IMG/VR virus record: IMGVR_UViG_3300045988_104520
Source of the DNA: a virus
Reading direction: 5' to 3' (one strand)
DNA: 64,000 nucleotides
Shown: in pieces, positions 1-50,700 of the stretch
Position numbering within the stretch: position 1 is the stretch's first letter
Layout of the letters: every line of letters starts with the position of its first letter
The notes under the pieces: generated by a model
Seen by the model: only the letters and a program-made list of their open reading frames with translations
Database searches by the model: none
What the model was told of the DNA's origin: nothing
Position numbers and translations under genes: made by a program

Positions 1-180
1 CAAAATAGGGCAATCTCTTCCCACCAAAATTAAGACTTACAGCGTTTTAAAACAGCATAATGTAGTTTCTTCCCACCAAATAGGGCAATCTCTTCCCCCA
101 AAATTAAGACTTACAGCGTTTTAAAATAGTTTCTTCCCCCAAAATTCAATAGATCAGAGCTTTAAAACAGCATAATGTAG
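1..180. repeat. Iterated direct repeats: two ~73-75-bp units, a 15-nt iteron (A/T)TCTTCCC(A)CC(A)AAAT x4, and CAGCATAATGTAG x2
   Basis: Read directly. AAATAGGGCAATCTCTTCCC..AAAATTAAGACTTACAGCGTTTTAAAA occurs at 4-53 and again at 79-126. CAGCATAATGTAG occurs at 54-66 and 168-180. Iteron copies lie near 15-31, 66-80, 90-105 and 130-146. Confidence 0.8.
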
Positions 181-854: not shown

Positions 855-935
855 GATATGAAAAAGGCATTTAAGATATTTTCTATTATGTTTGTCATAG
901 AAATAGTGCTGATAGCTATTTTAGATGCTATGGCG
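855..935 (+). CDS. Possible 26-aa hydrophobic micropeptide (MKKAFKIFSIMFVIEIVLIAILDAMA)
   Basis: ATG preceded by AAGGAGATAGCGAT; in-frame TAA; below the ORF-track size cutoff. Speculative. Confidence 0.25.
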
Positions 936-969
936 TAAGTGAGAAAAATTTCTTCATTAATTTTCTTAT

Positions 970-1085
970 GCCTTAAACAGAGTGCTCCCGTCTGCGAAGA
1001 TCGGAACACTTGCTTTATGGGATTCATGGTGCGGTAGGTCGGTTCGATTCCGGCGATCTCACACAACATTAAAAACAAAGGAGGA
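970..1085 (+). other. Structured leader element A: imperfect hairpin around a TCTGCGAAGA mini-loop, then a T-arm-like GTCGG-TTCGATT-CCGGC, then a conserved block ending ~7 nt before the ATG at 1092
   Basis: A ~40-nt block GGTTCGATTC(C/T)GG(C/G)(G/C)ATCTCACA(C/A)AACA(T)TAAAA(A)CAAA is shared with element B. No acceptor-stem pairing was found, so it is not called as a tRNA. Confidence 0.35.
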
Positions 1086-1091
1086 AAGAAA

Positions 1092-1433
1092 ATGAAAGAT
1101 GGCATTAAATTGCATCCAGAACACGGATTGAATCCGTCTATAGAAGTCTGCATGATATGTGGCGAAGAGATGGGGATTGCTTTATTAGGGAATAACATCA
1201 AGGGGCAGGCGCCGCATCATATATGCACGGGCGAAGTATGTGACAATTGCAAAAAGATAATAGATGATGGAGGTTGTTTTATTATCGAAGTCGAGGATGG
1301 ATCAGATCAAAAGAATCCGTATCGTACAGGAAGATATTGTGCGATAAAGAAAGAGGCGGCAAAGAAAATGTTTGGACAGGAGCATAATATTGTGTACATG
1401 GAAAAGTCTGCGTACAATCTAATAATACCATAA
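1092..1433 (+). CDS. Hypothetical Zn-ribbon protein (CxxC ... CxxC)
   Basis: Intact ORF with AGGAGG-like spacer. Cys pairs CMICGEEM and CDNCKK. Confidence 0.6.
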   Translation: MKDGIKLHPEHGLNPSIEVCMICGEEMGIALLGNNIKGQAPHHICTGEVCDNCKKIIDDGGCFIIEVEDGSDQKNPYRTGRYCAIKKEAAKKMFGQEHNIVYMEKSAYNLIIP

Positions 1434-1481
1434 AAATGAAGAGAGATATGTTTACAAAACATATGGAAAAAGGTATATGAG

Positions 1482-1748
1482 ATGATTGATAGGCAAGAGG
1501 ATGGGGAATACATATGTGTTGCGTTAAGAAATGTAGTGTTTATGTATTTCAAAAAACATAAAAATATCTATGGGTTTCGTTCAGACGAAATGGTGAGAAT
1601 ATATTTCCCGGAATTGGAGGAGAAGATAAGTATGGCCACAGAACCAGAGGAAACAAGAACGTTTTATGGGTGGTTTGGTTGTATTAGTCCAGAAACGAAG
1701 GAGGTAAGGCTGAATATTGTGAAAGATATTATAAAAGAATTAGAATAG
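1482..1748 (+). CDS. Hypothetical protein
   Basis: ORF tiling in the dense plus-strand block. Confidence 0.5.
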   Translation: MIDRQEDGEYICVALRNVVFMYFKKHKNIYGFRSDEMVRIYFPELEEKISMATEPEETRTFYGWFGCISPETKEVRLNIVKDIIKELE

Positions 1749-1794
1749 TATTTTTGTTAATCTATTTTATTCATCAAATTAAGTTTTGGGTTTT

Positions 1795-1920
1795 GGCATG
1801 TCGGTTCGTGAGGATAGGCATGCCTATTTCTGTATCATAGAGGGGATGACGCGGCGTGCCGGTATGTATGTGTCGGTTCTGGTTCGATTCTGGGCATCTC
1901 ACAAACAATAAAACAAAAGA
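1795..1920 (+). other. Structured leader element B: GTCGGTTCG x2, a 14-bp perfect palindrome ATAGGCATGCCTAT (1814-1827), a T-arm-like GGTTCGATTC, and the conserved block ending before the ATG at 1924
   Basis: Shares the ~40-nt block with element A (1881-1920 vs 1041-1085). Palindrome read directly. Confidence 0.35.
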
Positions 1921-1923
1921 GTT

Positions 1924-2363: not shown

Positions 2364-2472
2364 AAAACGTATTTTTATGTTAATGTTAGTTTTTTCATTT
2401 TTATTGAAAGGAGCGCCGGCCTGTGAAGGTATGCGCTCTTTGTATTTATATAATGCATAAAACAATAATAAG

Positions 2473-5922: not shown

Positions 5923-6440
5923 AAACGATAAAAGTAGACAAAGTGATATTATATTACATGGATCGGGTAGACCCTGACGGGAACTTATACCGGTTCTATG
6001 TGTATAAAGGAATGGCATCTGAAATAGAATACTTTTGCACTGAAGAGGCAGGTAATATGACCATACCAATCGGAGAAGGAGAGTATGTCAAGATCGTACC
6101 AAAAGAAATAGAGAAAATACCGGTAAGGGGATATAGGAAGCTTGCTGGAATATGGAATTGTGAAACATGTAACGGGAAGGGATGGCATAGGCTTTTTAAT
6201 TATTTCAAATACAAGCCAGACATATGTTATATTAAAAACATAGGGCGTGATAAAAATGGAAACACAAGATATGAAGTATCATTATTTAATGCCACTATGA
6301 ATGTGACAAGGTATTTTAATCTGTGGAGAATGAAGCCAGGGATGCATGCTATGATAACAAACGAGTACGGAGTCTTGGATATTATAAAAGAAAAATTCGA
6401 TAACATAAATATAGTGGAATATAGTGGAATATGGATATAA
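5919..6440 (+). CDS. Hypothetical protein
   Basis: ATGA overlap; intact ORF. Confidence 0.55.
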   Translation: MKTIKVDKVILYYMDRVDPDGNLYRFYVYKGMASEIEYFCTEEAGNMTIPIGEGEYVKIVPKEIEKIPVRGYRKLAGIWNCETCNGKGWHRLFNYFKYKPDICYIKNIGRDKNGNTRYEVSLFNATMNVTRYFNLWRMKPGMHAMITNEYGVLDIIKEKFDNINIVEYSGIWI

Positions 6441-6628
6441 ATAAAAAGAGTAGAAAAGATTATGAGAAGTTTCTTAACTCAATATCTCCAGATAGAGACG
6501 ATGAGGCATGGATCATTGGAGGAAAGAACAGGTATTGCGGTAGAGAGAATTATGGCACTATGATCAAAAGGTATGATCCTATTGGTTTTAATGTAGGATA
6601 CAGGGAGTGGGTAGAACAGCCAGAGTAA
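6431..6628 (+). CDS. Hypothetical protein
   Basis: ORF tiling. Confidence 0.45.
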   Translation: MDINKKSRKDYEKFLNSISPDRDDEAWIIGGKNRYCGRENYGTMIKRYDPIGFNVGYREWVEQPE

Positions 6629-6873
6629 GGCGGCGCCCGTCCTGCCATGAGGCCAGCCTGGCTGTTCGTGGCCAGGGCCATACATTAATCAGATAGTGAA
6701 CGGCGAAAACAATACATAAAATGGGAAACGAATTAAAACTTAACAGCGCAGAAGAAGCAGAAGTAATTTTAAGAAATGGTGGCTGATTATAAAGGTCGCA
6801 TATATGAATATTACGAGTTCAAGAGAGAGGTCATTGATAAGATAAGATAATTATATACCTAAAATAATAGTTT

Positions 6874-7188
6874 ATGGCATTCAAAGAATTTATGAAAGAA
6901 GTGGGCTATAACCTACTGACTACCTTTTGGGAAGATTTTAGTATAGCCGACAAGTATGGTATAGTAAGTGTCAAAGATACCTACAGACGTGCGTTTAGCG
7001 AATGGAAAGACGATTATAAGTTCTTCACGGAATTAACGCTCGTATTGAATCATAAAATCTGGCAGCATTATGAAAGCAATCGTGAACTGGCTGCATTGTA
7101 TGACCGGTTGTGGCGAGAAGCTGACGAGTATGCCATGAGCAACTTTAAGGGAGAAGAACTTGATTATTATTACAGAATAACTGATTAG
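6874..7188 (+). CDS. Hypothetical protein
   Basis: ORF. Confidence 0.55.
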   Translation: MAFKEFMKEVGYNLLTTFWEDFSIADKYGIVSVKDTYRRAFSEWKDDYKFFTELTLVLNHKIWQHYESNRELAALYDRLWREADEYAMSNFKGEELDYYYRITD

Positions 7189-7379
7189 CTATGTTATACC
7201 CGTTTTCATTGACGCTTGACTTATATATACAAGCCGAATCGTTTGAAGAAGCCAAGAAATTAGCAGAAGCATACGTACAAGATGCTTCGTTAGATACAAC
7301 TGACTATCCGGAAATAGTACAGGATGTGTTGGAAGTGGCAGAGTATGGAATAATTGATGTAGAATAATAAATTAATATT

Positions 7380-7655
7380 ATGACAGCAGCAGAAAAATTG
7401 CGTATGGAAATAGCGCAAGAAGCACCATTTAGTAAGGACGAATTTATTAGTAAAATCTCTCGTCTAATTAAGGCGTATGGATATGCAAGTTTTATTTGCG
7501 ACAAGCATATTCGAGAAACCGATGTATCGCCTAACGGTAACACGATTCGTATGGTACATGAACAGATAGCAATTGATTTTGCTCGTTATGAGGGTTTCTT
7601 AGTATCATACAAACATAACAGTTATGGTGTTAGATATATAGTATTCACTCTTTGA
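7380..7655 (+). CDS. Hypothetical protein
   Basis: ORF; its stop overlaps the start of the 35-nt conserved repeat. Confidence 0.55.
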   Translation: MTAAEKLRMEIAQEAPFSKDEFISKISRLIKAYGYASFICDKHIRETDVSPNGNTIRMVHEQIAIDFARYEGFLVSYKHNSYGVRYIVFTL

Positions 7656-7685
7656 CATACTCCCATAGCTAAAGCAAACGGGATT
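7651..7685 (+). repeat. 35-nt conserved element TTTGACATACTCCCAT(A/C)GCTAAAGCAAA(C/T)GGGATT, copy 1
   Basis: 33/35 identical to 38763-38797, same orientation. Read directly. Confidence 0.75.
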
Positions 7686-7841
7686 AAAAGAATGTAGCAG
7701 GGAAGAGGCATTTGACATCATTCAAGGGTGGGATAAAGAGTTTGCAGAGGAATATGGGAATTGTGATTTTGATGGATCATACTATGATGAAATAGATGCA
7801 TTTATCGAAGAAAAATTAAGAACTATTTAAAATATAAAGAC

Positions 7842-8525
7842 ATGGAAGACGATCTTATTACAACAAAAGAAGTAGGCGATTATCGCATTAAAGTGTATTA
7901 TTGCCGTGATTCAGAATGTCCTATAACTAATTGGGGTTTGTTTGGGTCATTCTTTTTTGAATACTCAGATACACATCGATTACATGATGAATGCGATTGG
8001 AAAACTTTCTTCTACGATAACAAGCATGATCTTAGAGATGTTATTGATGCTATTGTAATGAAGCATATAGAACAGAAAGACATTGTAAAATATTTAAAGA
8101 AAGGGGAAGCGAATGGGATCTCATTCACATACAACAGAGGTGGCAATGTATGGGAGTTGAAACATAAGACAAGTCTATATATAGGTCAAGAGTTTTCACC
8201 AGGTGATTTGAAGGACTTTGATTGCAGAGGAGAATTAATAGAGGATCTGGATGATGAAGACCTGTTAGATATCATATCCAAATATGGAAAAGATGTGGTA
8301 GCTATAGAGTGGTCGACAAGGGGTTATAATCAAGGTGATTATATAAAAGGGATAGCATACGTTACAAAAGAAAAATATGATAATGAAGTCTGCAACAAAG
8401 AAGGAGACTGGAAAGAAGATTGTGCCAAGATTATAGATAATGAGGTAAAGTCCATAGGTATGTGGATGTGGGTCTATTCTGGTTGCATTCGGCGAAGAGA
8501 ATGCGGAAGCATTAAGATCTTCTAA
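7842..8525 (+). CDS. Hypothetical protein (227 aa)
   Basis: Intact ORF. Confidence 0.6.
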   Translation: MEDDLITTKEVGDYRIKVYYCRDSECPITNWGLFGSFFFEYSDTHRLHDECDWKTFFYDNKHDLRDVIDAIVMKHIEQKDIVKYLKKGEANGISFTYNRGGNVWELKHKTSLYIGQEFSPGDLKDFDCRGELIEDLDDEDLLDIISKYGKDVVAIEWSTRGYNQGDYIKGIAYVTKEKYDNEVCNKEGDWKEDCAKIIDNEVKSIGMWMWVYSGCIRRRECGSIKIF

Positions 8526-8890
8526 TATTGAAGGAAGATATATACAGGTCAATCAAGAACCGTGTAACACCCATGTAGATTGGGAACAACGTAGATACGA
8601 GATAGCAAAAACCATACTTCCTATCACATCCGTATCAGGACGTGGACCTCACGGTGAATTAATATTGGAAGCGTGTGATAAGGCGGCTGAATTAGCTGTA
8701 ATATATGCGGATGCTTTAATTAAAGAACTGAAATGAAATCAACAGTATATGTTCATCTTGAGAATGATTATAGATTTTATAGACTTCCTCTATTTAGAGC
8801 TACGGCTGTAAAATACGGATGGGATAATCCTATAGGGGAAGACAGCGGGAGAGAAAGAAAATATGATTCACAGTATTAAATGGGTATATC

Positions 8891-31366: not shown

Positions 31367-34300
31367 CTATTTATAACTTACATCATCATCCCCTTCCGAA
31401 TCAGGGGTGGCGCCGATGAAGAACATCATTGACTTATTGTTCGTCTGCTGCCACCAATTATAGGCGCGCGCTACGTCTTCCGGCGTCTTGATATTATACC
31501 ATTGTTTGATAAACGTCTGTTTGGTGAGTTGCCTAAATAACTTAGACTCTCCTTTGTATGTACCTGACGTCACCTTATCAAGTGAGTAGTTCCTAAGATC
31601 GGTAAGATCCTTAAGTTTCCGTCCCATAACAAATGGGTCGTTAATGATATCAACCACGTTAAGCTCCATAATAAATGGCATCTGTGAAGCTATTTCGTTT
31701 ATGGTTCTGAATCCGACGTAGGATCCGAATTGAGTAAGCCAACTTTCCTCGTTTTCATCATCATCACGCCACCCGGCAAGAAGCATAGATACGGCTTGCA
31801 TGATAAGGAACGTGCCGGCATAGACACTGAGACGTTTTAGATTGGTTTTCTCTACCTCATTCATATTGTCTTTATTTTCGTTCCAAGCATCTATGATGTT
31901 TTTCATACCAGACTCGGAAGCTAAGCTAAATGTTTTGGCTATCATATTCTTTAACGTAATTGACAGTCCTTCCTCTTCTTGCATTGTCTGGAAATTGAAG
32001 CCACGTCTTTTCCACAGACGTTGAGCCGCCAGCACCAACCATCCTCGGTGGGCGGTCATGAACCTGGCTATCCAGTTGCGTGATGCGGCAGTCCGATTTT
32101 CTTCATTCAAAGATCCGTTACATATCTGCGACAAGCTGCGAACTTGATTTCGAGTTATAGCCATCTGGGTTTCGACTTCCTCGGCAGTAACACCCGATCC
32201 AGGTTTTACGACCACCTTCCCATCCACAACATCTACCATACTCCATAAAGTACGATCTTTTAATGCATTCCATTCTCTTTTTATGGTACTCTGTTCTTTA
32301 TTTCGTTCTTTTTCCATCTTGAAATCTTGGAACGTGTAGAACCGGCCTTTATAGTATCGCACGTTATCCATAGTGGCAATCATAACCTGCGGGTCAAGAG
32401 GGTAGTTCAGGATTTCCATAAAAGCATACATCGGTGAACGCATTAAGGTCCTGGCCACTCTATTGTATCCGGCACCATACATACGATTTCGGATATTGAA
32501 TATCCCCATTCTCTCACCTATGACATATAATTTACTTTTTCTATCTATGTCTCCGGTTTCCGCTATACAAGATGGAGCAAGACGGGAAAACTCAGCCGAT
32601 GCGTATTTAAGGGAGTCTTTGCTTATATACTGTCCTACAGCTGATTCCATGATGAGGTTGATATGGCCGGTAAGGGCGCCGGTAGCTGCCACAAACGGAG
32701 ACAGTGCCAAGTTCATGACCGACATAAACCTTTCAATAGCCATCATAATTCTTGTAAGGTCTACTGTGTACCCACCGATGTTCACCGTAAGTTTTTTGGT
32801 GTTCATCCTAATGCCATAATAATGATCGTTGAAGAAGTCCCTGAACATCTGATATGCTTGGGTTGCTTCAGCCTTTTTCCCGCCTTCAAATTGCTTATTC
32901 AGCAACATCTGCTCCAGTCCTTGGGCGAGCTCTATAGACTTCTGCTTTTCGTTGTATAACGATGACTGCATCATAAGCATCGAATAAGAGTAACCAAAAT
33001 CGTGAGATACGTCATCTTGGTTCTCTAATTCATATATGTAGTATTTAGGTATGGACCGAACCCTATCTTCCGGATCATATACCTCACCCTGACGTGTTTT
33101 ACCATACAGGGAGTCATCTACGCGGTCAAGACATAAGTCGGATACGAAGTTCCTGACCGTACTTTTAAGGTTAATACCTAACCCTTCTATACGTTCTATA
33201 TCTTGTTTGGATATCTGTGGAATAGCATACAGATTAGGGCTCTGCTCTTTGTATAGATCAAGGGATTGTCTTTTTATTTCCTTGAGTTTTTGAATCATAT
33301 TCCACTGCTCTACGTTTTTAGTAGCAACTTCATTACCGTCAGCATCATACTTGATACCAAAGTCATTGAAATACGATTCATCACGATACAGGCTTTTCTT
33401 GGGCATACGATGACCATACCCATGATCTTTTACATAATCAGGGTTACGACCGCTATTTTCGGCTTCAGATTCAGCCACCCATGCCCTTGCAGGGTCGAAA
33501 GACAGGTACGATATGTCCATGCCATAATCTTGGGCGGATGTACCATTTTGTACGTCCTTAACCATCTGCGCCACATCTATCTCACCTCGACCGATTTTGT
33601 CGATCATGGCCGCATATCCGGTAGGCGCCATGCGTTTATAGTACGAAAAAACCTGGCTCCTGGCAAATTCATTAACAATAGCATTAGCTTCTTCTATGCC
33701 CGCTTTTATGTCAGCTTCTATACCCTCTTCTCTTGTATTATTTAAAAATAAGCTGGCCATCTTAGCATTAACAGCATTCCTGAAATCTCTACCGTCTAAT
33801 TCTTTGCTTATACCAAGCTTTTCTGACAGGTAGTTGGTTTCAGATACGGTAAACAGATATCGGTTATCAGCAGCCTTAAACAGCTTATCCCTTAAAGCCT
33901 GAATCCTTTTTGCTTTCTTCGCCGTAGTATGACGTTGTACGAACTTCCATTCCACTTCCTTGGAGTCAGCAAGAGCATTTAAATAAGACTGATTTACTTC
34001 GTTTTCAGCCTTACTGCTTTTAGTAAGGTACTTATCAATATCTTCAAGACCCACCATCTTAGCATAATCTATTAATATAGCGTAATCGGCTTCAATAGCT
34101 TCAGATGCGGCCCTAAAAGCATCTCTTTCAGATGAGGTAAATGTCGCTTCGTTAATTTCTCCGATATCAGCCACATCGCGATTGTTTCCGATTATTTCCT
34201 TGATAATGGCCTTATTTTTTTCTATATCTTTCACAATCGAATCCACGTCAGTCGCATCTCTATCACTTGTCGTAGAACTAATGATATCATGCGCCATTTT

Positions 34301-37300
34301 AAGATACGAAGCCTTGTTATTTGATTCGGTACGCGCCGACTGTTCCGATTCTACGTCATTCCAAAACCGATCGTTGAACGACAGATGACCACCCAACATA
34401 AGTGTCTTCAGCGCAGCTTCTCCTCCTGACTCGCTCTGAATCGTTCTCAATTTTTGCAAAAACGATTCTGATACGGCATTGGTAACATTATTTGATTCTT
34501 TTCTCCAAACTTCATTTATGGCTTGTATTTCTTTGGCCATCTTAAGTTGGTCGCCGGTTTTTTCCACTCTCCTGGTTCCTACATATATGTATTCTGAAGC
34601 CGCCTCCTTACGTTGTTTACGAAGCAGTCCTTCTTCTTCGTAATTGCTGCTTTTAAAATAGGAGGCCTCATCAAAATTACCACCGCTATCAATAAAAGGC
34701 TGCCTCAATATCCGTTTTTGCCGGGATAGGGCATTAAGGTATTCTTTGGTTGTTTGAGAAACCGGATGCCCTAATTCTTCTTCAGCCTTTTTGTATATGG
34801 ATTCCATTCTTGTGGCATAACTTTCGCTAAATTCCAGTTCCGAATTTTCAGCATCCCACTTTTCCATCTGTTCCGTATAGATCTTTTCCTGCTCGATGGT
34901 AAAAATATCGGTATTAACCCTATCAGACGATGGTTTGAATTTAGCGTTTTCAGTAACCGTATTTCCATCCTTGTCAATTACTTCTCTTTTAAATACGTAA
35001 TTACGGTTATTGTCAACCACATCACCAATTTCTTCTTCTGATATCTCTATGTTCATGGCAGTCGCAAACGCTCGCATCTGTGCCAACTTCTTATTACGAT
35101 CGTATTTAGCCATATCAAGGGCACTACGAAGGTAATTAGAAGTTTTGCCGTCTACTTTCTGAAGCAGTTTTTCAAATTCAGATTTGTTAAAACCATGCTT
35201 TTTCGCATATGCCAGGAAATCGGATATGGCGGGCTGGGCATTCACCATCGCATTGTAATTGTCTTTGGCAATCATAGCTCCAAGAGCGTTATTGAACGGA
35301 CTGGAAGAATGCTCTAATATACCAAACCACCTACTTATCCAAGAAACATCGTGTTGAACCTTGTCGAAAAATTCTTTTACTCTCTTTACCTTATCTGCCG
35401 GCACATGAAGTTCGTTCATTAACTTATCAAGCAACGTACTTTCATCAAGGTCTTGTACTGATTTAATATCAGACTGAATACCATTGATGTCGGCAATGAC
35501 GGTATTGATCCTATTTGTATAATCCTGCTTTTCACGTTCATCAAATTCGGTACTTCTGTTACGGATATATCCTCGAAGATCGTTCATGATCGGAAGAACC
35601 TGATTGTTGATAATATCTACGTTCTTTCGATCATTGGTATTGAAGTGAAGCTTACCGTCTTTGGTATCACCATGAAGGATAGTATTTACTACGTTGCTTA
35701 AGTATCTAACCTGAGCTTCGGCTGTGGAGATCATGCTGTTCATGGCGACCGCCATCTCATTCTTGTCTATTTCGGTCTCTACCTTATTTATCTTATCTTC
35801 TATGGTCTTAAGCTGCGCAAGGGTCATAGACGTAGTTACAGCCCTATCAGAGCTTATCTGACGTAAGTCTCTTAATGTTTTTCTTAGTGATCTGATCTTA
35901 GACTCAAGAAACTTGTTCTTGTTCATAGAAGAAAGGGAGTATAATGTAAAGTCATTATCCTTTAACAGAGAGGTGTCAAATCCTTTATCTATGTCAGTAA
36001 TGGCAAGATCACGAATGTTTTTAATAACGTTATTCAAATCTTGTCTTTGGGTTGATAAAGCTGATTTAAGCCAGCTTACGATTCCAGAGAGAAGCTGCCG
36101 GACGCGCCCCAGGAAGGAGGTGGGCTCTACCGGCGCCTGTGCTGTGCCGGTCTGCATCTCCCTGGCGAGGATCTTTCCAAGAATTTCTCTCCTAACAGCA
36201 TTATCAAGCTCAGCTCCTTCATATACCTTACCGTATGTATTATAATACTGACCTGCATACTGGTTCCACTCTTCCGTACCTTCTACATCTTGCAGAACAG
36301 CCTCAACAGCATTCTGGTCTCTGTATGCCTCTACAAGGAAGTGGGCTGTTTCTTCTACTAAATCAGATAAAGTAGCATCTTCACCAACTGCTATTACGTT
36401 ATTAGCAATATCCGCCAATGCCTTAGCAGAAGGTTCATGCCCGTATTTGGTTTGGTACTTCTCTATATAATCGGTCATACCTATGACACTAACGCCAAGC
36501 GTTTTCAGTATCTCGACAATAGAATTTCGTTGATCACGTTCCTGCCTGCTATAATCTGATACGATCTTAGCTTTAGTATCAGCATAAAGATCGTTGTCTT
36601 CTAATATGAATGAAACTACAAGCGCATCAAAATGATCGTACTTGGCGTCCAATTCATTGTATCTTCCTGACTTGAGATCGTTCTTTATCTGCTCTTTGCT
36701 AACCCTTTCCGTTCCTCCGGTAGCGAGCCTCATAGTTACCTTGCTATTATCCAACGAGCTTATGGTTATCATACCTTGGTCGTTCATGGAAACATCGGAA
36801 CCAAAATGATTACGGAGCTCGGTGTAGGATAATGCTGAATTGAAAAGTCTAATTTGTCCTGTATGTCCTTCTCCTGTAAGATAATAGCTTCTTGTTTCCG
36901 AATCGAATATCTTAGATCCGGACAAAAGACCTTTCTTTATAAGGTAGTTAATTATACCACCTTTTGTTGATAAAGAAGTAGAAGCAGAAGCGGTCATGAC
37001 CGGTATAAAAGACTTGGGATTATTAAGAACATACTTTCCAGCCTTGTAAGTAATGTCTGCCACGCCATCCACGGCAGATTCTTGAACGGTGCCGGATAAG
37101 AATCCTATTCTAATATCATTCCCGCCAGAGCGAAGAGCTTCTCCGTAATCTTCAAATAATTGATTACGATCGTTCATGAAAAACAAACGAGGCTCTCCGG
37201 TCTGATACGTTACACCCACAGGATTAGAATCTGTCTGTGGTAACTCTTCTGGGCTAAATATCTTAAGACCGTCTTTTATAACCATATAATTAACACCCTT

Positions 37301-37813
37301 ATCCTGTACCATAGATACGGGAGTGAAGTCCGAAGATATAGCATCTTGTAAATACTGCCCGGCGTCTATTCCAGGTCCTTCCGGTACGGAAATACTTGAC
37401 GGGACCATAGCATCTACCAACATAATATTATCACCCAGATCTTGGCTGTAAAATCCAAAGCCCGATTCTCGGATTTCATAAGGTGCATCTGATTTTGATA
37501 CAAGAACAGGATTACTCATCTTAGAAGCCTTATCCAGCACCCTTTCTCTATAAGCTTCCGGAATAAGATCGATGTTGGATTTCACCTTATTGTAGGCCTG
37601 TTTATTAACAGGCACTTTCTTTCTCCAGTCGCCAAAAGCCCTTAAGAACTTATTAGAAAATACGGTTTTAAAAACAGTAGTAGCCCGTTCCCTATTCTCC
37701 ATAAGGGGAATAGATGCTATTTTATCAAACAACATAGACCTCTCCCCTGATCTGGTAGAGACAGAAACAACTTTCTTTTTATTATCTCTTTTAATAATAC
37801 ACGTTGATGTCAT
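31367..37813 (-). CDS. Giant virion-associated protein (2148 aa), last gene of the minus-strand structural/ejection block
   Basis: 6.4-kb uninterrupted ORF with its own TACCTTTG box upstream. No canonical DxDGD RNA-polymerase motif was seen, so function is not assigned. Confidence 0.85.
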   Translation of the reverse strand: MTSTCIIKRDNKKKVVSVSTRSGERSMLFDKIASIPLMENRERATTVFKTVFSNKFLRAFGDWRKKVPVNKQAYNKVKSNIDLIPEAYRERVLDKASKMSNPVLVSKSDAPYEIRESGFGFYSQDLGDNIMLVDAMVPSSISVPEGPGIDAGQYLQDAISSDFTPVSMVQDKGVNYMVIKDGLKIFSPEELPQTDSNPVGVTYQTGEPRLFFMNDRNQLFEDYGEALRSGGNDIRIGFLSGTVQESAVDGVADITYKAGKYVLNNPKSFIPVMTASASTSLSTKGGIINYLIKKGLLSGSKIFDSETRSYYLTGEGHTGQIRLFNSALSYTELRNHFGSDVSMNDQGMITISSLDNSKVTMRLATGGTERVSKEQIKNDLKSGRYNELDAKYDHFDALVVSFILEDNDLYADTKAKIVSDYSRQERDQRNSIVEILKTLGVSVIGMTDYIEKYQTKYGHEPSAKALADIANNVIAVGEDATLSDLVEETAHFLVEAYRDQNAVEAVLQDVEGTEEWNQYAGQYYNTYGKVYEGAELDNAVRREILGKILAREMQTGTAQAPVEPTSFLGRVRQLLSGIVSWLKSALSTQRQDLNNVIKNIRDLAITDIDKGFDTSLLKDNDFTLYSLSSMNKNKFLESKIRSLRKTLRDLRQISSDRAVTTSMTLAQLKTIEDKINKVETEIDKNEMAVAMNSMISTAEAQVRYLSNVVNTILHGDTKDGKLHFNTNDRKNVDIINNQVLPIMNDLRGYIRNRSTEFDEREKQDYTNRINTVIADINGIQSDIKSVQDLDESTLLDKLMNELHVPADKVKRVKEFFDKVQHDVSWISRWFGILEHSSSPFNNALGAMIAKDNYNAMVNAQPAISDFLAYAKKHGFNKSEFEKLLQKVDGKTSNYLRSALDMAKYDRNKKLAQMRAFATAMNIEISEEEIGDVVDNNRNYVFKREVIDKDGNTVTENAKFKPSSDRVNTDIFTIEQEKIYTEQMEKWDAENSELEFSESYATRMESIYKKAEEELGHPVSQTTKEYLNALSRQKRILRQPFIDSGGNFDEASYFKSSNYEEEGLLRKQRKEAASEYIYVGTRRVEKTGDQLKMAKEIQAINEVWRKESNNVTNAVSESFLQKLRTIQSESGGEAALKTLMLGGHLSFNDRFWNDVESEQSARTESNNKASYLKMAHDIISSTTSDRDATDVDSIVKDIEKNKAIIKEIIGNNRDVADIGEINEATFTSSERDAFRAASEAIEADYAILIDYAKMVGLEDIDKYLTKSSKAENEVNQSYLNALADSKEVEWKFVQRHTTAKKAKRIQALRDKLFKAADNRYLFTVSETNYLSEKLGISKELDGRDFRNAVNAKMASLFLNNTREEGIEADIKAGIEEANAIVNEFARSQVFSYYKRMAPTGYAAMIDKIGRGEIDVAQMVKDVQNGTSAQDYGMDISYLSFDPARAWVAESEAENSGRNPDYVKDHGYGHRMPKKSLYRDESYFNDFGIKYDADGNEVATKNVEQWNMIQKLKEIKRQSLDLYKEQSPNLYAIPQISKQDIERIEGLGINLKSTVRNFVSDLCLDRVDDSLYGKTRQGEVYDPEDRVRSIPKYYIYELENQDDVSHDFGYSYSMLMMQSSLYNEKQKSIELAQGLEQMLLNKQFEGGKKAEATQAYQMFRDFFNDHYYGIRMNTKKLTVNIGGYTVDLTRIMMAIERFMSVMNLALSPFVAATGALTGHINLIMESAVGQYISKDSLKYASAEFSRLAPSCIAETGDIDRKSKLYVIGERMGIFNIRNRMYGAGYNRVARTLMRSPMYAFMEILNYPLDPQVMIATMDNVRYYKGRFYTFQDFKMEKERNKEQSTIKREWNALKDRTLWSMVDVVDGKVVVKPGSGVTAEEVETQMAITRNQVRSLSQICNGSLNEENRTAASRNWIARFMTAHRGWLVLAAQRLWKRRGFNFQTMQEEEGLSITLKNMIAKTFSLASESGMKNIIDAWNENKDNMNEVEKTNLKRLSVYAGTFLIMQAVSMLLAGWRDDDENEESWLTQFGSYVGFRTINEIASQMPFIMELNVVDIINDPFVMGRKLKDLTDLRNYSLDKVTSGTYKGESKLFRQLTKQTFIKQWYNIKTPEDVARAYNWWQQTNNKSMMFFIGATPDSEGDDDVSYK

Positions 37814-47256: not shown

Positions 47257-47796
47257 TTATAAAACCGACTTATACAATGACGGATCCCAAATTCCTTCTA
47301 TATAAATCTCCGGAAAACTCAAACTGCCATCACGAAGAGTGGTGACTTCCAAGCTGGGAATGTTGAAAACAGTACTGGTATCACTAAACTCACCATTCAA
47401 CTTGATAGCATTTCCGCTGTTATTAGCCTCATAATAAAAATAACAATAATTTTCATTAATGCTTGGATCATATTCGTACCAATATGTTAGATCTTGTATA
47501 TGATCTTCTATGTTACCAATTTTGTTTTCACCTAATATAAAAATACCATTATTGCTATGATTATAAACCATAGATTCATAACCACCATAATTCCAATTAC
47601 TATTAAACATTATGTAACTAACATCAGAATCATGATCTTTTAATACAGGTCCTATATGTATATGAATTTTATTAAACTGACATACATAAGGTCTTTTCCC
47701 TCCAAGCCTTTTTATATCCTCATTAGATAACTTATTATAACATCCTCCCACGAAATTATCCGCAGCATTAAAAAATCTCCTTCTCATACTCAACAC
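47257..47796 (-). CDS. Hypothetical Asn/Tyr-rich beta-rich protein (179 aa)
   Basis: ORF; 7-nt overlap with the upstream giant gene. Confidence 0.6.
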   Translation of the reverse strand: MLSMRRRFFNAADNFVGGCYNKLSNEDIKRLGGKRPYVCQFNKIHIHIGPVLKDHDSDVSYIMFNSNWNYGGYESMVYNHSNNGIFILGENKIGNIEDHIQDLTYWYEYDPSINENYCYFYYEANNSGNAIKLNGEFSDTSTVFNIPSLEVTTLRDGSLSFPEIYIEGIWDPSLYKSVL

Positions 47797-50700
47797 TCCT
47801 TGTTTAACTCATTTATCGAATCCGAATTATCAGAACCTTCTACGAGATTCTTATTCCTATCTATCTCTTCCTGACTCATGTTACTCATCATATTTTGTAT
47901 TTTTCTACCAGATTGAGATAAAGAGCGGATGAATGCACTGGAACTTATCTTAACTCCAAGATCCGGTTTTGCCCTAAACGCTTCACCGGTACTGATATTA
48001 TACAAATCATACACACCTGAGTTCATATAGAATTTATATATCCAGTTTCCACCAGCTTTTTTGTACCCTAATTTGGTTAACTCGACTACACTCATACCAA
48101 ATTTAATGCCATTACGACCCATTATCTTCTCCGGTATAGGTTCTACCTTAGCCGGAACAGATGTATATGCTTCATCGCCGCCGTACAGGAAATAAGGGGT
48201 TGTCACCCTTGATATGTGAGTAAGCGGTTCTTCGGATATACGAGGCTCGTCTTTCGCAGCCTTATATTCTTCCCTTGGATTGGATATCCTAATAAAAGGA
48301 TCGTATGTCAAAAAGGTTAAGCCGTATTCTACTTTATAACCTGATACGCCGTTAAGATCCCTTATAGCCTTAGTCGTATGCGAGTGATTGATGGTGTCTA
48401 TACCATACCTTGATTCCATATCGGTCATAATACTATTAACCTCATCTCCCTCTACATAAACCTCTTCTCCTTCCGGGATAGAGGTTATGCCGGCAGCCCT
48501 TCTAAGTAGCCATAAAGTGACTTCAGCAATGTCAGAGAACTTATCTCCGTTCTTCCTATAGTTATCTACTCTTCCTTCTTCATATCCAGGTAATTCGACA
48601 TTTCCTTTAACTTCGACATTTGTTCTGGATTGTCCTTTGCCTTCTCCATCTCCCTTTTTATCGCCATCTTCCTCAGTGCGTACTGCACCGCCTTCTGCAC
48701 TTCCTTCTTTTCCATCATTTAAAATATTATCTGATTCTGACTCTATAGACTCCACGACAGCATCATACTCTGGTATGCCGCTAAGGAAATCTGCTACGTT
48801 ATTCAAAAACTCTATTTTTTCCTCGTTTGTCATATCAAGGCTTTCCACGGGCTCCCATATGGCAGGCAAGTTGTTTGATTTTATTGCAGTAGAAACATCT
48901 TCTACAGTTTTATTATCCACCGTAGGCAAAACTTTAGAAACCAAACTATTGATATCAGATTCCATTTTTTCTACTTCCTCTTTTGTGCCATATTCTTTTA
49001 GGGTATCCATGCCATTGACTCTAAGAGAATAATTCAAAGCCTTACTCGGAACAAAATTAATATATTTCAAAAAGTTTTTCAACTCTGATATAATTTGTTC
49101 GTCAGATCTTGGCCCAACATAATCAACCACCACCTGATCTGTTTGAGAACGAAGCCAAGAAACGTATTCATTTAAGGTCTTACCACCTTTACTGGAAGGA
49201 GTGGATATTTTATCACCTACTGTTCCTTTAGGTTCTAATCCCATTTCCTCCTTAAGACTTTTAGGATTACCTCTCTCACGAAGAAACCTCAAGTCACCTC
49301 CTACAATCTTCCTTGCTATAAAATCAAAAATATTAGCATAAGGCGGCAATCCTTCTTTTTCTATATGAGATTCTATTTCGTTTAACATAAGAGAGAAGTT
49401 TTTCCTGGAGGTACGCTTCTTGCCAGGTAAAGACTGCATAGCTTGTGCCGCAGGAGCCGGCTGAGCTAATGGCGCCGGCTGAGTCCCCCTGACAGCTCCT
49501 TCCTCTGGCATTTCCTCTTCATAAACATCCACGTATTCTTTAGAAGTAACGGTCTTACCCTCATCAGAGAAAGGAAGATCATCCTCTATAAGTGATTTTG
49601 ATCTGGAAGATGATTTACCAAATTGAATCCTGATCTTAGGAGCGACAAACATCTCACCTTCGAAATCTATTCCAGATTCTACTTCAGATGTCACAATGTC
49701 TTTAACGCTCCTACTTCCATCTTCTACCCACTTAACAACATCAGGAACCGTAGATAATTTTTCTATAGCCTCACGAGCTTTTATAAGCCCTGAAATAGGA
49801 TTCAAATACGATACTTGATACGAAGCCGGATCAAGACCTAACTTGGTCAGATACGCATTAAGATCTTGTATGTCATCTTGACCCATCTGCAACAATTCAG
49901 AGTCACCGGATTCAAGCAGCATATCTATAAAAGAAATCCATTTCTTTCCTTCCTCTGATTCTACAGAACGTAGACTAACAGGGAAAAGATAATTAAGACC
50001 GTTTTTACCTTTGATGACAACTACCGGAACTCTTACATTTTTGTAATTATTCCCCTTGTCATTTAATATAGAATAAGCAAATGGGAAGCCTGTGTATTTA
50101 GAGCCGTTCTTAAGCACGACTTTGCCATTTAATACATATCCGACATCAGATACTTTTTCAGCACCTTTTTCGGTAATAGGGAGATTTTCTACCTGGCCAT
50201 ATCCTTGACCGTTCACCCTCATGTTAAATACCGGTCTTCCGGGAAGAGTCTGGGCAACAACATGCGTGCCGACGCTGATGGTAGCCGACCGGCCGGCGTC
50301 CTTCTTCCACTTGTTAAAAGCCGTTCTTCTTATCTTACTTATACCATCTATGCCTCCTGTGTCAGCTTTTACAACAGAAACGAATCTGTTTCCACTCATG
50401 ACCTTGATAACCATATTGGACACCAGTTTATTCTCAGCAGATTCTATTCTTTTTTTATCGCCGGACTGAACAGCGTCATTGTATTCGGCAAAAAGAGACT
50501 GATTATAAGTATCATTTACATCTATTTCGAGATTAACCTTATCTCCTTTTTTCAAAGAAGATAATGCTTCCTGATCTATTTTATCTACTTCATTCTCTCC
50601 GAATCCGACACCTGTTCTGTACGGAACCAACTCATCTGAATCAAGACGCTTATAAACCAAAGAATATGAATTACCCACGTCCTGAATAGACACGTCTGTG

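What the first reader, a model, noticed from the sequence alone, without database searches (positions are those of the whole stretch)
960..1920. Two tRNA-T-arm-like conserved leader elements upstream of consecutive early ORFs
Both 1038-1085 and 1871-1920 contain GGTTCGATTC, a textbook tRNA T-loop. In both it is followed by a shared block: (C/T)GG..ATCTCACA.AACA.TAAAA.CAAA. That block runs up to a few nt before the ATGs at 1092 and 1924.
- In element A the T-stem GTCGG/CCGGC is good and a 7-nt acceptor-like GATCTCA follows, but no complementary 5' acceptor strand exists within 130 nt.
- Element B additionally has GTCGGTTCG twice and a perfect 14-bp palindrome ATAGGCATGCCTAT.

Possible interpretations:
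- degenerate tRNA 3' halves;
- tRNA-like processing signals (RNase P/Z entry sites) punctuating an early polycistronic transcript;
- a phage-specific promoter/leader;
- remnants of attachment-site-like sequence.
Basis: seen in the sequence. Interest (0 to 1): 0.5.

Follow-up and report, generated by a model that had tools for sequence, protein, structure and literature searches.

The report
tRNA-like leaders before phage early genes
Two short stretches just upstream of consecutive early genes of a human-gut crAss-like phage fold into stripped-down tRNA look-alikes (acceptor stem plus T arm, no anticodon), and they most likely tell the host's tRNA-trimming enzymes where to cut the phage's messenger RNAs.

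Summary
GGTTCGATTC plus a shared downstream block occurs at 1041-1063 and 1881-1903 and nowhere else in the window (0 expected). One sub-claim is wrong: element A does have a 5' acceptor strand, UGGGAUU at 1018-1024.

Both elements are reduced tRNA-like structures:
- a 6-7 bp acceptor-type helix stacked on a 5-bp T stem;
- an invariant UUCGAUU loop;
- no D arm and no anticodon.

ARAGORN and Rfam find nothing. More than 119 related gut-phage contigs carry them, including GenBank csAssE-Sib, along with a third paralogue (C) about 1.9 kb upstream of the window.

Evidence for a sense-strand RNA:
- Stems keep pairing through G·U wobbles and compensatory changes. Six of 12 pairs differ compensatorily between paralogues.
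- The loop and acceptor strands show zero diversity, against 0.097 at synonymous sites.

Each element lies between a GNRA-capped, terminator-like hairpin and an A-rich leader 21-29 nt before the ATG. The phage's real, CCA-less tRNAs sit before an ORF in the same way.

Best reading (about 0.45, cleavage not shown): "t-element"-like punctuation cut by RNase P and RNase Z. It is a new variant of a known kind and moderately interesting.

The parts
980..1011 (+). Upstream hairpin A. It has 13 bp with an internal C/C mismatch and a GCGA (GNRA) loop at 994-997, followed by the U-rich GCUUUA. Terminator-like, or a 3'-stabiliser for the upstream message.
   Evidence: MFE fold. In 35 distinct haplotypes, 98% of cells are paired and 3 pairs show compensatory double changes.
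1018..1062 (+). tRNA-like element A.
- Acceptor 5' strand 1018-1024 (UGGGAUU).
- 13-nt linker 1025-1037.
- T stem 1038-1042 / 1050-1054.
- T loop 1043-1049 (UUCGAUU).
- Acceptor 3' strand 1055-1061 (GAUCUCA).
- Discriminator-position C1062.
- No CCA is encoded.
   Evidence: Sequence and geometry scan. 100% of cells are paired in 10-35 haplotypes, and T-stem changes all preserve pairing. Nucleotide diversity is 0 in the acceptor strands and T loop, 0.078 in the linker and 0.097 at ORF third positions.
1063..1091 (+). A-rich, unstructured leader A with GGAGG, running up to ATG 1092 of a 113-aa ORF.
   Evidence: Diversity is 0.007. In some relatives an extra 134-aa ORF is inserted right after ...CAUUAAAA.
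1795..1824 (+). Upstream hairpin B. The outer stem is 8 bp (GGCAUGUC/GGCAUGCC), the inner stem 4 bp, and the loop is GUGA (GNRA). UAUUUCUGU follows.
   Evidence: MFE and alifold. Sub-threshold resemblance to terminator hairpins of Bacteroides sRNAs. Missing in two relatives that still keep element B (L001, L106).
1842..1902 (+). tRNA-like element B.
- Acceptor 5' strand 1842-1848. G1842 is unpaired opposite A1901; 1843-1848 (GGGAUG) pairs with 1895-1900 (CAUCUC).
- Mini-hairpin 1849-1857.
- 8-bp arm with a GUAU loop, 1858-1877. This arm is deleted in some relatives.
- T stem 1878-1882 / 1890-1894.
- T loop 1883-1889.
- Acceptor 3' strand 1895-1901.
- C1902.
   Evidence: 94% of cells are paired in 24 haplotypes, against 25-53% when the partner is slid. 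G3·U70 to A-U, G-C to G·U and T-stem U·G to U-A changes all preserve pairing. The arm deletion occurs in L016, L079, L133 and L166.
1903..1923 (+). A-rich leader B, running up to ATG 1924 of a 76-aa ORF.
   Evidence: Relatives carry a different first ORF directly after ...CAAUAAA.

Best explanation
**What it is.** Each element is a transcribed, minimal tRNA mimic. A 6-7 bp acceptor-type helix stacks on a 5-bp T stem with the invariant loop UUCGAUU. A short linker joins them, and there is no D arm and no anticodon.

**Where it sits.** It lies in sense-strand intergenic RNA, directly after a GNRA-capped, weakly U-tailed hairpin and 21-29 nt before the next start codon.

**Proposed mechanism.** The host tRNA-maturation endonucleases treat it as a pre-tRNA.
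- RNase P cuts at its 5' edge, before 1018 in A and before 1842/1843 in B.
- RNase Z cuts after the discriminator position, C1062 in A and C1902 in B. No CCA is encoded, which is the RNase Z-type situation.
- Excision separates the upstream message, now ending in its protective hairpin, from the downstream message.
- The downstream message then starts with an unstructured A-rich leader suited to ribosome loading.

This is tRNA punctuation of the kind done by t-elements in plant mitochondria.

**Shown:** sequence, geometry, conservation, strand-specific pair-preserving variation and genomic placement.

**Inferred:** transcription through the elements and both cleavages.
For: 1. **tRNA geometry.** A 5-bp stem, the 7-nt loop UUCGAUU and a 5-bp stem are directly followed by the 3' acceptor strand, with a matching 5' strand.

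2. **Paralogues.** Three paralogues (A, B and C, the last lying upstream of the window) were aligned on the 12-bp acceptor/T helix:
   - 92% of cells are paired, against 78.4% in shuffles (0 of 500 reach it) and at most 60% with slid partners.
   - 6 of 12 pairs carry changes on both sides.

3. **Within each class**, almost all stem changes are pair-preserving wobble transitions. Many pairs are G·U, so only the + strand can fold.

4. **Constraint.** Diversity is 0 in the T loop and both acceptor strands and 0.007 in the leader. It is 0.078 in the linker and 0.097 at third codon positions.

5. **Alternative fold disfavoured.** The alternative MFE pairing of the A linker with the 3' strand is broken by the linker variants seen in relatives. 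The linker is therefore unpaired, as the model requires.

6. **The element is positional.** The first ORF downstream is swapped or inserted in relatives while the element stays in place.

7. **The same phage lineage already uses this layout with real tRNAs.** tRNA-Met, Gln, Arg and Cys have the same UUCGAUU/C loops and no encoded CCA. They end 17 nt before the next ATG, with an A-rich spacer.

8. **Precedent.**
   - Plant mitochondrial t-elements were found with the same GGTTCRANYCC motif. Those upstream of cox1, rps4 and ccmFN1 define mRNA 5' ends via RNase Z, and those downstream define 3' ends via RNase P (PMC1920247).
   - A 7-bp acceptor stem is a major RNase P determinant, and a tRNA-like Y RNA is cut by RNase P and receives CCA (PMC4201824).
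Against: - There are no transcript data, so neither transcription through the elements nor any cleavage is shown.
- The acceptor helix of A never varies, which gives no within-class covariation.
- Position 1:72 is unpaired in B and in most of C, so the helix is often only 6 bp.
- I picked the 5' strand because it is complementary. A 6-bp match within about 60 nt has roughly a 0.17 chance per element (own estimate), so the between-class covariation of the acceptor part carries ascertainment bias.
- Folding energies are no better than shuffles, with z from +0.4 to -1.4. In the window's own copy of B the MFE does not form the T arm.
- The next intergenic region (2364-2472) has a hairpin and an A-rich leader but no tRNA-like element. 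Distant homologues of the downstream ORF also lack it. The device is therefore not a general requirement.
- Whether Bacteroidales RNase P and RNase Z accept substrates this reduced has not been tested.
Confidence: 0.45

Rival explanations
1. The product matters, not the cut. The excised 45-65 nt minihelices, perhaps CCA-tailed, are stable small RNAs that act in trans. They could be decoys or sponges for host factors that recognise the tRNA elbow or acceptor end, such as tRNA-directed defence nucleases, modification enzymes or EF-Tu. They could also be alanine-accepting minihelices, since A and most B copies carry G3·U70.
For: - The T loop and acceptor sequences are invariant, not merely their structure.
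- A and B share the same acceptor sequence GGGAU/AUCUC although their linkers differ completely.
- G3·U70 is present in all A haplotypes and in 21 of 24 B haplotypes.
- The lineage invests heavily in tRNA and RNA biology. It carries six tRNAs, polynucleotide kinase/phosphatase, a Ro60 homologue with a weak YrlA-like RNA, and a nucleotidyltransferase annotated as a CCA-adding enzyme.
Against: - G3·U70 becomes A-U in some B copies and is G-C in C.
- The discriminator position is C, not the A73 of tRNA-Ala.
- No anticodon arm is available to decoy anticodon nucleases.
- The strict placement 21-29 nt before a start codon, directly after a hairpin, is not needed for a trans-acting RNA.
- The annotated nucleotidyltransferase is absent from this window and matches no NCBIfam model.
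Confidence: 0.2
2. A cis-acting leader structure that is not cleaved. The tRNA-like fold stays on the mRNA and either protects its 5' end from exonucleases or helps ribosome or factor recruitment to the adjacent A-rich initiation region.
For: - The distance to the ATG is fixed and short, and the leader is very strongly conserved with diversity 0.007.
- The element always sits at the head of a gene cassette.
Against: - A plain hairpin would serve as a 5' stabiliser. This reading does not explain why the exact tRNA T loop and the 7/5 stacking geometry are kept in three paralogues.
- No promoter that would place the element at a 5' end was found.
Confidence: 0.15
3. A DNA-level signal. It could be a structured or hairpin promoter for the phage's virion RNA polymerase, or a recombination site. 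On this reading the RNA fold is incidental.
For: - crAss-like virion RNA polymerase prefers single-stranded DNA, and its early promoters have no known motif (bioRxiv 10.1101/2020.03.07.982082).
- Homology between relatives breaks just downstream of the elements.
- One contig carries an A-5'/B-3' chimera that deletes the genes between them (L192).
Against: - The stems depend on G·U pairs, 2-3 of 5 in the B T stem. On the template strand these become A·C mismatches.
- The 7-nt loop and 12-bp stacked geometry are tRNA features. By my recollection they differ from phage N4 hairpin promoters, which have a 3-nt loop.
- No integrase is annotated in the related complete genome.
- The chimera is what ordinary homologous recombination between two repeats would produce.
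Confidence: 0.07
4. Functionless relics: decaying pseudo-tRNA fragments left by duplication of the phage's own tRNA genes.
For: - The phage lineage has tRNA genes with the same UUCGAUU loop a few kb upstream in the same orientation.
- tRNA finders and Rfam do not recognise the elements.
Against: - Diversity in the core is zero across 48 contigs, while synonymous sites reach 0.097.
- Substitutions preserve pairing.
- Three paralogues with different sequences keep the same geometry.
- The elements persist in more than 119 contigs.
Confidence: 0.08

Closest known systems
t-elements of plant mitochondria (tRNA-like processing signals in mRNA UTRs). By my recollection, analogous tRNA-like elements exist in Haloferax.
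   Same: - Non-canonical tRNA-like folds that keep a textbook T arm (GGTTCRANYCC) and an acceptor-type stem.
- They lie next to coding regions.
- Those upstream of a gene give the mRNA 5' end through RNase Z, and those downstream give the 3' end through RNase P.
- The excised element can receive non-templated C/CCA (PMC1920247).
   Different: - The host system is a bacteriophage, probably of Bacteroidales, not an organelle.
- These elements are more reduced, because A has no arm at all between the acceptor and the T arm.
- They are paired with a GNRA hairpin and placed only 21-29 nt from the ATG.
- Cleavage has not been shown here.
tRNA-mRNA co-transcripts (tRNA punctuation), including the real tRNA cluster of this phage lineage
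   Same: A tRNA-shaped module sits immediately upstream of an ORF with an A-rich spacer and no encoded CCA. In csAssE-Sib, tRNA-Cys ends 17 nt before the next ATG.
   Different: The elements here cannot decode. They have no anticodon arm and no D arm, and tRNA finders miss them.
mascRNA / MALAT1-type tRNA-like 3'-end processing signals (from my own knowledge)
   Same: A tRNA-like structure embedded in a longer transcript. RNase P and RNase Z cut it out, which defines the end of the flanking RNA and yields a small CCA-tailed by-product.
   Different: Those are eukaryotic, fold as a full cloverleaf and lie at the 3' end of a long non-coding RNA. There is no sequence relationship.
YrlA (bacterial and phage Y RNA-like, Rfam RF02553)
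   Same: A tRNA mimic with a conserved T arm. Phages encode them, and one member is cut by RNase P and gets CCA (PMC4201824). The related genome csAssE-Sib encodes Ro60 with a weak YrlA-like hit beside it.
   Different: - The topology differs. In YrlA the acceptor-like stem is a closed hairpin between the T and D arms, and the ends form the Ro60-binding stem.
- There is no RF02553 match to A or B even at E<=10.
- The elements are not adjacent to the Ro60 gene.
tRNA-like domain of tmRNA (from my own knowledge)
   Same: An acceptor stem with G3·U70, a T arm and a reduced D-loop substitute, with no anticodon.
   Different: Here the two acceptor strands are only 13-46 nt apart. There is no tag reading frame and there are no pseudoknots. 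ARAGORN and Rfam find no tmRNA.
PeSL 'promoter-early stem-loop' cassettes of T4-type phages (from my own knowledge)
   Same: A repeated regulatory sequence sits at the head of small early genes in a hyperplastic region. Repeats flank swapped or deleted ORFs, and recombination between repeats removes the genes in between.
   Different: PeSLs are a promoter plus a simple stem-loop. These are tRNA mimics, and no recognisable promoter was found.

Membership tests
canonical tRNA gene | Cloverleaf with a D arm and an anticodon arm (7-nt loop, conserved anticodon), recognisable by tRNA finders or Rfam RF00005 | tested here: not met
   - ARAGORN finds 0 genes in the window and in related loci.
- There is no RF00005 hit at E<=10, even on 150-170 nt slices.
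- The arm of B has a 4-nt loop and is deleted in some relatives.
- The loop triplet of C is not conserved.
canonical tRNA gene | T arm (5-bp stem, 7-nt loop GTTCRANYC) abutting a 7-nt 3' acceptor strand that pairs with a 5' strand | tested here: met
   Caveat: position 1:72 is unpaired in B and in most of C.
t-element (tRNA-like mRNA processing signal) | GGTTCRANYCC T-arm motif outside any canonical tRNA | tested here: met
   GGTTCGATTCC at 1041-1051 and GGTTCGATTCT at 1881-1891. The last base of B is U, which forms G·U in the stem. The motif definition comes from PMC1920247.
t-element (tRNA-like mRNA processing signal) | Folds into a non-canonical tRNA-like structure with an acceptor-type stem | tested here: met
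   Comparative pair counts. MFE or centroid folds recover the acceptor helix in A (centroid), B and C. Support for the acceptor helix is moderate, because it is invariant in A.
t-element (tRNA-like mRNA processing signal) | Lies within an mRNA leader, trailer or intergenic transcript | tested here: inconclusive
   The position fits: sense strand, between a stop codon plus hairpin and the next ATG. Transcription could not be examined.
t-element (tRNA-like mRNA processing signal) | Element ends coincide with mapped RNA ends, with cleavage by RNase P and RNase Z | not testable with these tools
   No transcript-end data are available.
YrlA / Y RNA-like (RF02553) | Covariance-model match, with a T arm, a closed acceptor-like hairpin and a D arm inserted in a Ro60-binding stem, encoded next to rsr | tested here: not met
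   There is no hit on A or B at E<=10. The acceptor helix is open-ended. In csAssE-Sib the Ro60 gene and its own weak YrlA-like hit lie at record position 72.6-74.7 kb, far from the elements.
tmRNA | tRNA-like domain plus a tag reading frame and pseudoknots, detected by ARAGORN or Rfam | tested here: not met
hairpin (single-stranded DNA) promoter of N4-type virion RNA polymerase | Short DNA hairpin with Watson-Crick pairs and a 3-nt loop, upstream of the start site | tested here: not met
   The loop is 7 nt. Stems contain 1-3 G·U pairs, which are mismatches on the complementary strand. The N4 features are recalled from memory and were not re-derived.
PeSL-like mobile regulatory cassette | Repeated early promoter plus stem-loop flanking interchangeable ORFs | tested here: inconclusive
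   The repeats flank variable ORFs, and one recombinant deletes the interval between them. No promoter was recognised, but only sigma-70 and TAnnTTTG patterns were scanned and neither was enriched.

The most novel reading that the evidence does not exclude
The elements are genes for a new class of phage small RNA. These would be anticodon-less tRNA minihelices of about 45-65 nt, excised from early mRNA by RNase P and RNase Z and CCA-tailed. They would act on the host tRNA machinery. For example, A and B could be alanylated through G3·U70, or the minihelices could soak up acceptor/elbow-binding defence or modification factors. The mRNA cutting would then be a by-product.
Probability: 0.12. Interest if true: 0.8.

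Novelty: new variant of a known kind. Interest (0 to 1): 0.55.

Why it matters
crAss-like phages are among the most abundant viruses of the human gut, and their early gene expression is poorly understood. In the phi14:2 model phage no common early-promoter motif was found.

If these elements are cut by RNase P and RNase Z, they would be, to my knowledge, a bacteriophage example of t-element-type mRNA punctuation. That would show that a phage can define the ends of its early messages with the host's tRNA-maturation enzymes instead of dedicated promoters and terminators.

The elements are short, sharply defined and present in three paralogous versions with natural variants: arm deletion, loss of the upstream hairpin, and an A/B chimera. 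The hypothesis is therefore directly testable.

They are also a conserved structured RNA absent from Rfam, and tRNA finders miss them, which is useful for annotation.

Tried and rejected
- **tRNA or tmRNA gene, including odd boundaries.** ARAGORN finds none.
- **Any Rfam family.** No match at gathering thresholds on the window. The only hits at E<=10 on 3 kb and on 150-170 nt slices were unrelated and below threshold.
- **Host tRNA 3' half, as an attP-like core.** An exact-pattern scan of one genome per species gave 6 hits. One is the phage itself in a Veillonella-labelled MAG contig. The other five are unrelated sequence in loci where ARAGORN finds no tRNA.
- **More copies in the window or in the related genome.** A T-arm plus acceptor geometry scan found only A and B in the window, at background rate otherwise. 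Across csAssE-Sib pieces and 213 loci it found only A, B, C and real tRNAs.
- **Alternative fold of A** (linker paired with the 3' strand, the MFE). Rejected because linker variants break it.
- **Long-range pairing of GUGAGA (939-944) with UCUCAC (1058-1063).** Rejected because the 5' partner is lost in some relatives.
- **Coding explanation** for the mechanical ORFs 939-1037, 982-1095 and 1786-1911. Rejected because relatives carry a 1-nt indel and a 14-nt deletion inside B, and A loses its stop codon.
- **Deeper relatives** for stronger covariation. Homologues of the downstream ORF at 57%, 44% and 32% identity have no such element. The family is confined to one phage clade.
- **Promoter scans.** Neither sigma-70 nor TAnnTTTG patterns were above chance.
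- **Literature.** Nothing was found on csAssE or on tRNA-like leaders in crAss-like phages. No supplementary files are held for the phage structured-RNA catalogue.
- **Phage CCA-adding enzyme in the window.** The ORF at 7842-8525 is not a homologue, and tblastn finds none in the window.
Full report
**Context**

The window is part of a large gut phage.
- Its first 4 kb are 93% identical to GenBank OR575929.1, 'phage csAssE-Sib' (human gut, 151 kb).
- That record's annotation marks it as crAss-like: portal, ring, muzzle and BACON-domain proteins.
- Small + strand ORFs fill 1-31 kb. Large virion-type ORFs on the - strand fill the rest.

**Checking the observation**

- GGTTCGATTC is at 1041-1050 and 1881-1890.
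- The 10-mer with one mismatch allowed is not above chance: 3 found against 3.67 expected.
- The 23-nt shared pattern GGTTCGATTCYGGNNATCTCACA occurs only at these two places, even with three mismatches allowed. Shuffles give 0.00.
- The similarity continues through an A-rich stretch to just before the ATGs at 1092 and 1924.
- The palindrome at 1814-1827 is present.

Two details are wrong.
- GTCGGTTCG occurs once, not twice, in B.
- Element A does have a 5' acceptor strand. UGGGAUU (1018-1024) pairs with GAUCUCA (1055-1061) over 7 bp, two of them G·U. A 13-nt linker separates it from the T arm.

**Anatomy**

Element A (1018-1062):
- acceptor 5' strand;
- 13-nt linker;
- T stem GUCGG;
- loop UUCGAUU;
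- T stem CCGGC;
- acceptor 3' strand;
- C at the discriminator position.

Element B (1842-1902):
- It has the same acceptor core, GGGAU(G)/(C)AUCUC.
- Position 1 is unpaired.
- Between the acceptor and the T arm it carries a 3-bp mini-hairpin and an 8-bp arm with a 4-nt loop.

Neither element encodes CCA.

Each is preceded by a stable hairpin with a GNRA loop and an imperfect U-rich tail (980-1011 and 1795-1824). Each is followed by an A-rich leader of 29 or 21 nt.

ARAGORN finds no tRNA or tmRNA. Rfam finds nothing relevant, even at E<=10 on 150-170 nt slices.

**Relatives**

- Homologues of the ORF at 1092 recovered 80 IMG/VR loci, all at least 90% identical in protein. Every one carries the elements.
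- Loci with enough upstream sequence show a third paralogue, C, about 1.9 kb upstream of A. That is before the window starts, at about position 525 (minus strand) of the csAssE-Sib record.
- C has the same T loop but a different acceptor helix, GGUUGU/GCAACC, and its own internal arm.
- Across 213 fetched loci, only classes A, B and C and genuine tRNAs have this T-arm geometry.
- More distant homologues of the ORF (57%, 44% and 32% identity) have no such element. The family is confined to one phage clade.

**Is it an RNA structure?**

Within classes the sequences are about 95% identical, so statistical power is low. Even so, stem substitutions are nearly all pair-preserving.
- A: 100% of cells are paired. 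T-stem U·G/C-G becomes C-G/U·G, U-A or G·U.
- B: 94% are paired, against 25-53% when partners are slid. G3·U70 becomes A-U, G4-C69 becomes G·U, and T-stem U·G becomes U-A.
- C: 94% are paired, with two pairs changed on both sides.
- The hairpin upstream of A has three compensatory pairs.

Between paralogues, I aligned the 12-bp acceptor/T helix with the linkers removed by me.
- 92% of cells are paired, against 78.4% in shuffles (0 of 500 reach it).
- The covariation score is 0.543 against 0.266.
- 6 of 12 pairs carry changes on both sides.

Caveat: I chose the 5' strands for complementarity, so the acceptor part of this comparison is biased. My estimate of the chance of a 6-bp match within 60 nt is about 0.17 per element.

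Independent support:
- A and B share GGGAU at exactly the start of the element although their linkers are unrelated.
- The variable linker positions of A break the competing MFE fold.
- Constraint is strong. Diversity over 48 contigs is 0 in the T loop and both acceptor strands and 0.007 in the leader. It is 0.078 in the linker and 0.097 at third codon positions of the downstream ORF.

The many G·U pairs make the fold specific to the + strand, the sense strand for the ORFs. This argues for RNA rather than a duplex-DNA or template-strand signal.

Thermodynamic stability alone is unremarkable, with z from +0.4 to -1.4.

**Placement and plasticity**

- The element stays while the first downstream gene changes. 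Some relatives insert a 134-aa ORF right after ...CAUUAAAA of A (L018).
- B is followed by either of two unrelated ORFs.
- Natural variants:
  - B without its internal arm (L016, L079, L133, L166);
  - B without the upstream hairpin (L001, L106);
  - one A-5'/B-3' chimera that deletes everything between the two elements (L192).
- The next intergenic region (2364-2472) has a GUGA-looped hairpin, a U-rich tail and an A-rich leader, but no tRNA-like element. The element is an addition to a common hairpin-plus-leader layout.

**Mechanism**

The features conserved here are what tRNA end-maturation enzymes read: the stacked acceptor/T helix and the T loop.
- From established knowledge, bacterial RNase P cuts acceptor/T-arm minihelices.
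- RNase Z processes CCA-less precursors after the discriminator and needs mainly the acceptor and T arms.
- PMC4201824 states that a 7-bp acceptor stem is a major RNase P determinant. [quoted passage not shown]

The same phage lineage places real, CCA-less tRNAs with the same loop 17 nt upstream of an ORF, with an A-rich spacer.

Plant mitochondrial t-elements were found with the same GGTTCRANYCC motif. They generate mRNA 5' ends by RNase Z and 3' ends by RNase P (PMC1920247).

I therefore propose that read-through or long early transcripts are cut on both sides of each element.
- The upstream message is left ending in its hairpin.
- The downstream message is left starting with a short unstructured leader.

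Structure, conservation and placement are shown. Transcription and cleavage are inferred (confidence about 0.45).

**Rivals**

- A trans-acting excised minihelix, as a decoy or an alanine acceptor through G3·U70. G3·U70 is lost in some B copies and in C. Confidence 0.2.
- An uncleaved cis stabiliser or translation aid. Confidence 0.15.
- A DNA-level promoter or recombination site. This is disfavoured by the wobble pairs, by the lack of an annotated integrase and by the absence of a matching host tRNA. It is not excluded, because crAss-like virion RNA polymerase promoters are unknown. Confidence 0.07.
- Neutral pseudo-tRNA relics. Disfavoured by the constraint data. Confidence 0.08.

**Comparison and novelty**

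The elements work most like t-elements, tRNA punctuation and mascRNA-type signals. They are not members of tRNA, tmRNA or YrlA by the tests above.

I found no description of such leaders in crAss-like or other phages. A large catalogue of phage structured RNAs exists whose sequences I could not inspect.

I rate the finding as a new variant of a known kind. It is restricted to one abundant gut-phage clade and moderately interesting (0.55), because the prediction is sharp and testable.

Noticed in passing
window 1-180: A cluster of direct repeats: three copies of a roughly 45-nt unit (CCACCAAAATTAAGACTTACAGCGTTTTAAAACAGCATAATGTAG) and four nearby copies of a 17-nt unit (AATCTCTTCCCACCAAA). Many IMG/VR contigs of this phage end 700-1600 nt upstream of the ORF at 1092, which is around this region. 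It could be iterons, promoters or a genome-end or assembly-break region.
   Followed up: no
window 2364-2472: The third intergenic region has a GC-rich hairpin with a GUGA loop (about 2410-2437), a U-rich tail and an A-rich leader (AUAAAACAAUAAUAAGAUG) resembling leader B. It has no tRNA-like element, which makes it a natural control. Folding z is -2.55.
   Followed up: partly
L089 22601-22705 and 23091-24725 (OR575929.1 72.6-74.7 kb; outside the window): The related phage csAssE-Sib encodes a Ro60 (Rsr) homologue. Just upstream lie tRNA-Tyr, tRNA-Lys and a weak YrlA (Y RNA-like) match of 28.5 bits, E 0.0035, below the gathering score of 69. This could be a phage Ro60/Y-RNA module in a crAss-like genome.
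   Followed up: partly
L192 (IMG/VR contig), minus strand around 7736: A chimeric element joins the 5' half of A to the 3' half of B through the shared GGTTCGATTCC core. It deletes the genes between them and leaves a mismatched T stem (GUCGG/CCAGG). This is either natural recombination between the repeats or an assembly chimera.
   Followed up: partly
L018 2600-3004; window 6106-8759: The early region is hyperplastic. A 134-aa ORF is inserted between element A and the 113-aa ORF in many relatives. The window and csAssE-Sib share no detectable similarity over about 6.1-8.8 kb of the window.
   Followed up: partly
L214 42063-42725 (OR575929.1 137063-137725; absent from the window): csAssE-Sib has a 220-aa protein annotated as 'polyA polymerase / CCA-adding enzyme', with a GG...DID nucleotidyltransferase-like motif. 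It matches no NCBIfam model and has no homologue in this window. The same genome also encodes polynucleotide kinase/3'-phosphatase and an NrnA-like phosphodiesterase upstream of element C.
   Followed up: partly
window 31367-37813 (-) and 47790-54509 (-): Two giant ORFs of 2148 and 2239 aa have no significant Pfam match. In a crAss-like genome one of them may be the virion RNA polymerase. I did not examine them.
   Followed up: no
window 858-938: A 26-codon hydrophobic ORF (MKKAFKIFSIMFVIEIVLIAILDAMA) with a GGAG ribosome-binding site ends about 40 nt before hairpin A. Its 3' end is conserved in relatives.
   Followed up: no
L086 (NZ_DXLG01000138.1, 3.9-kb contig of a 'Veillonella sp.' MAG): A fragment of this phage, containing element A and the 113-aa ORF, is binned in a human-gut Veillonella MAG. 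A contig this short is weak evidence for the host. The crAss-like and BACON-domain annotations point to Bacteroidales instead.
   Followed up: no
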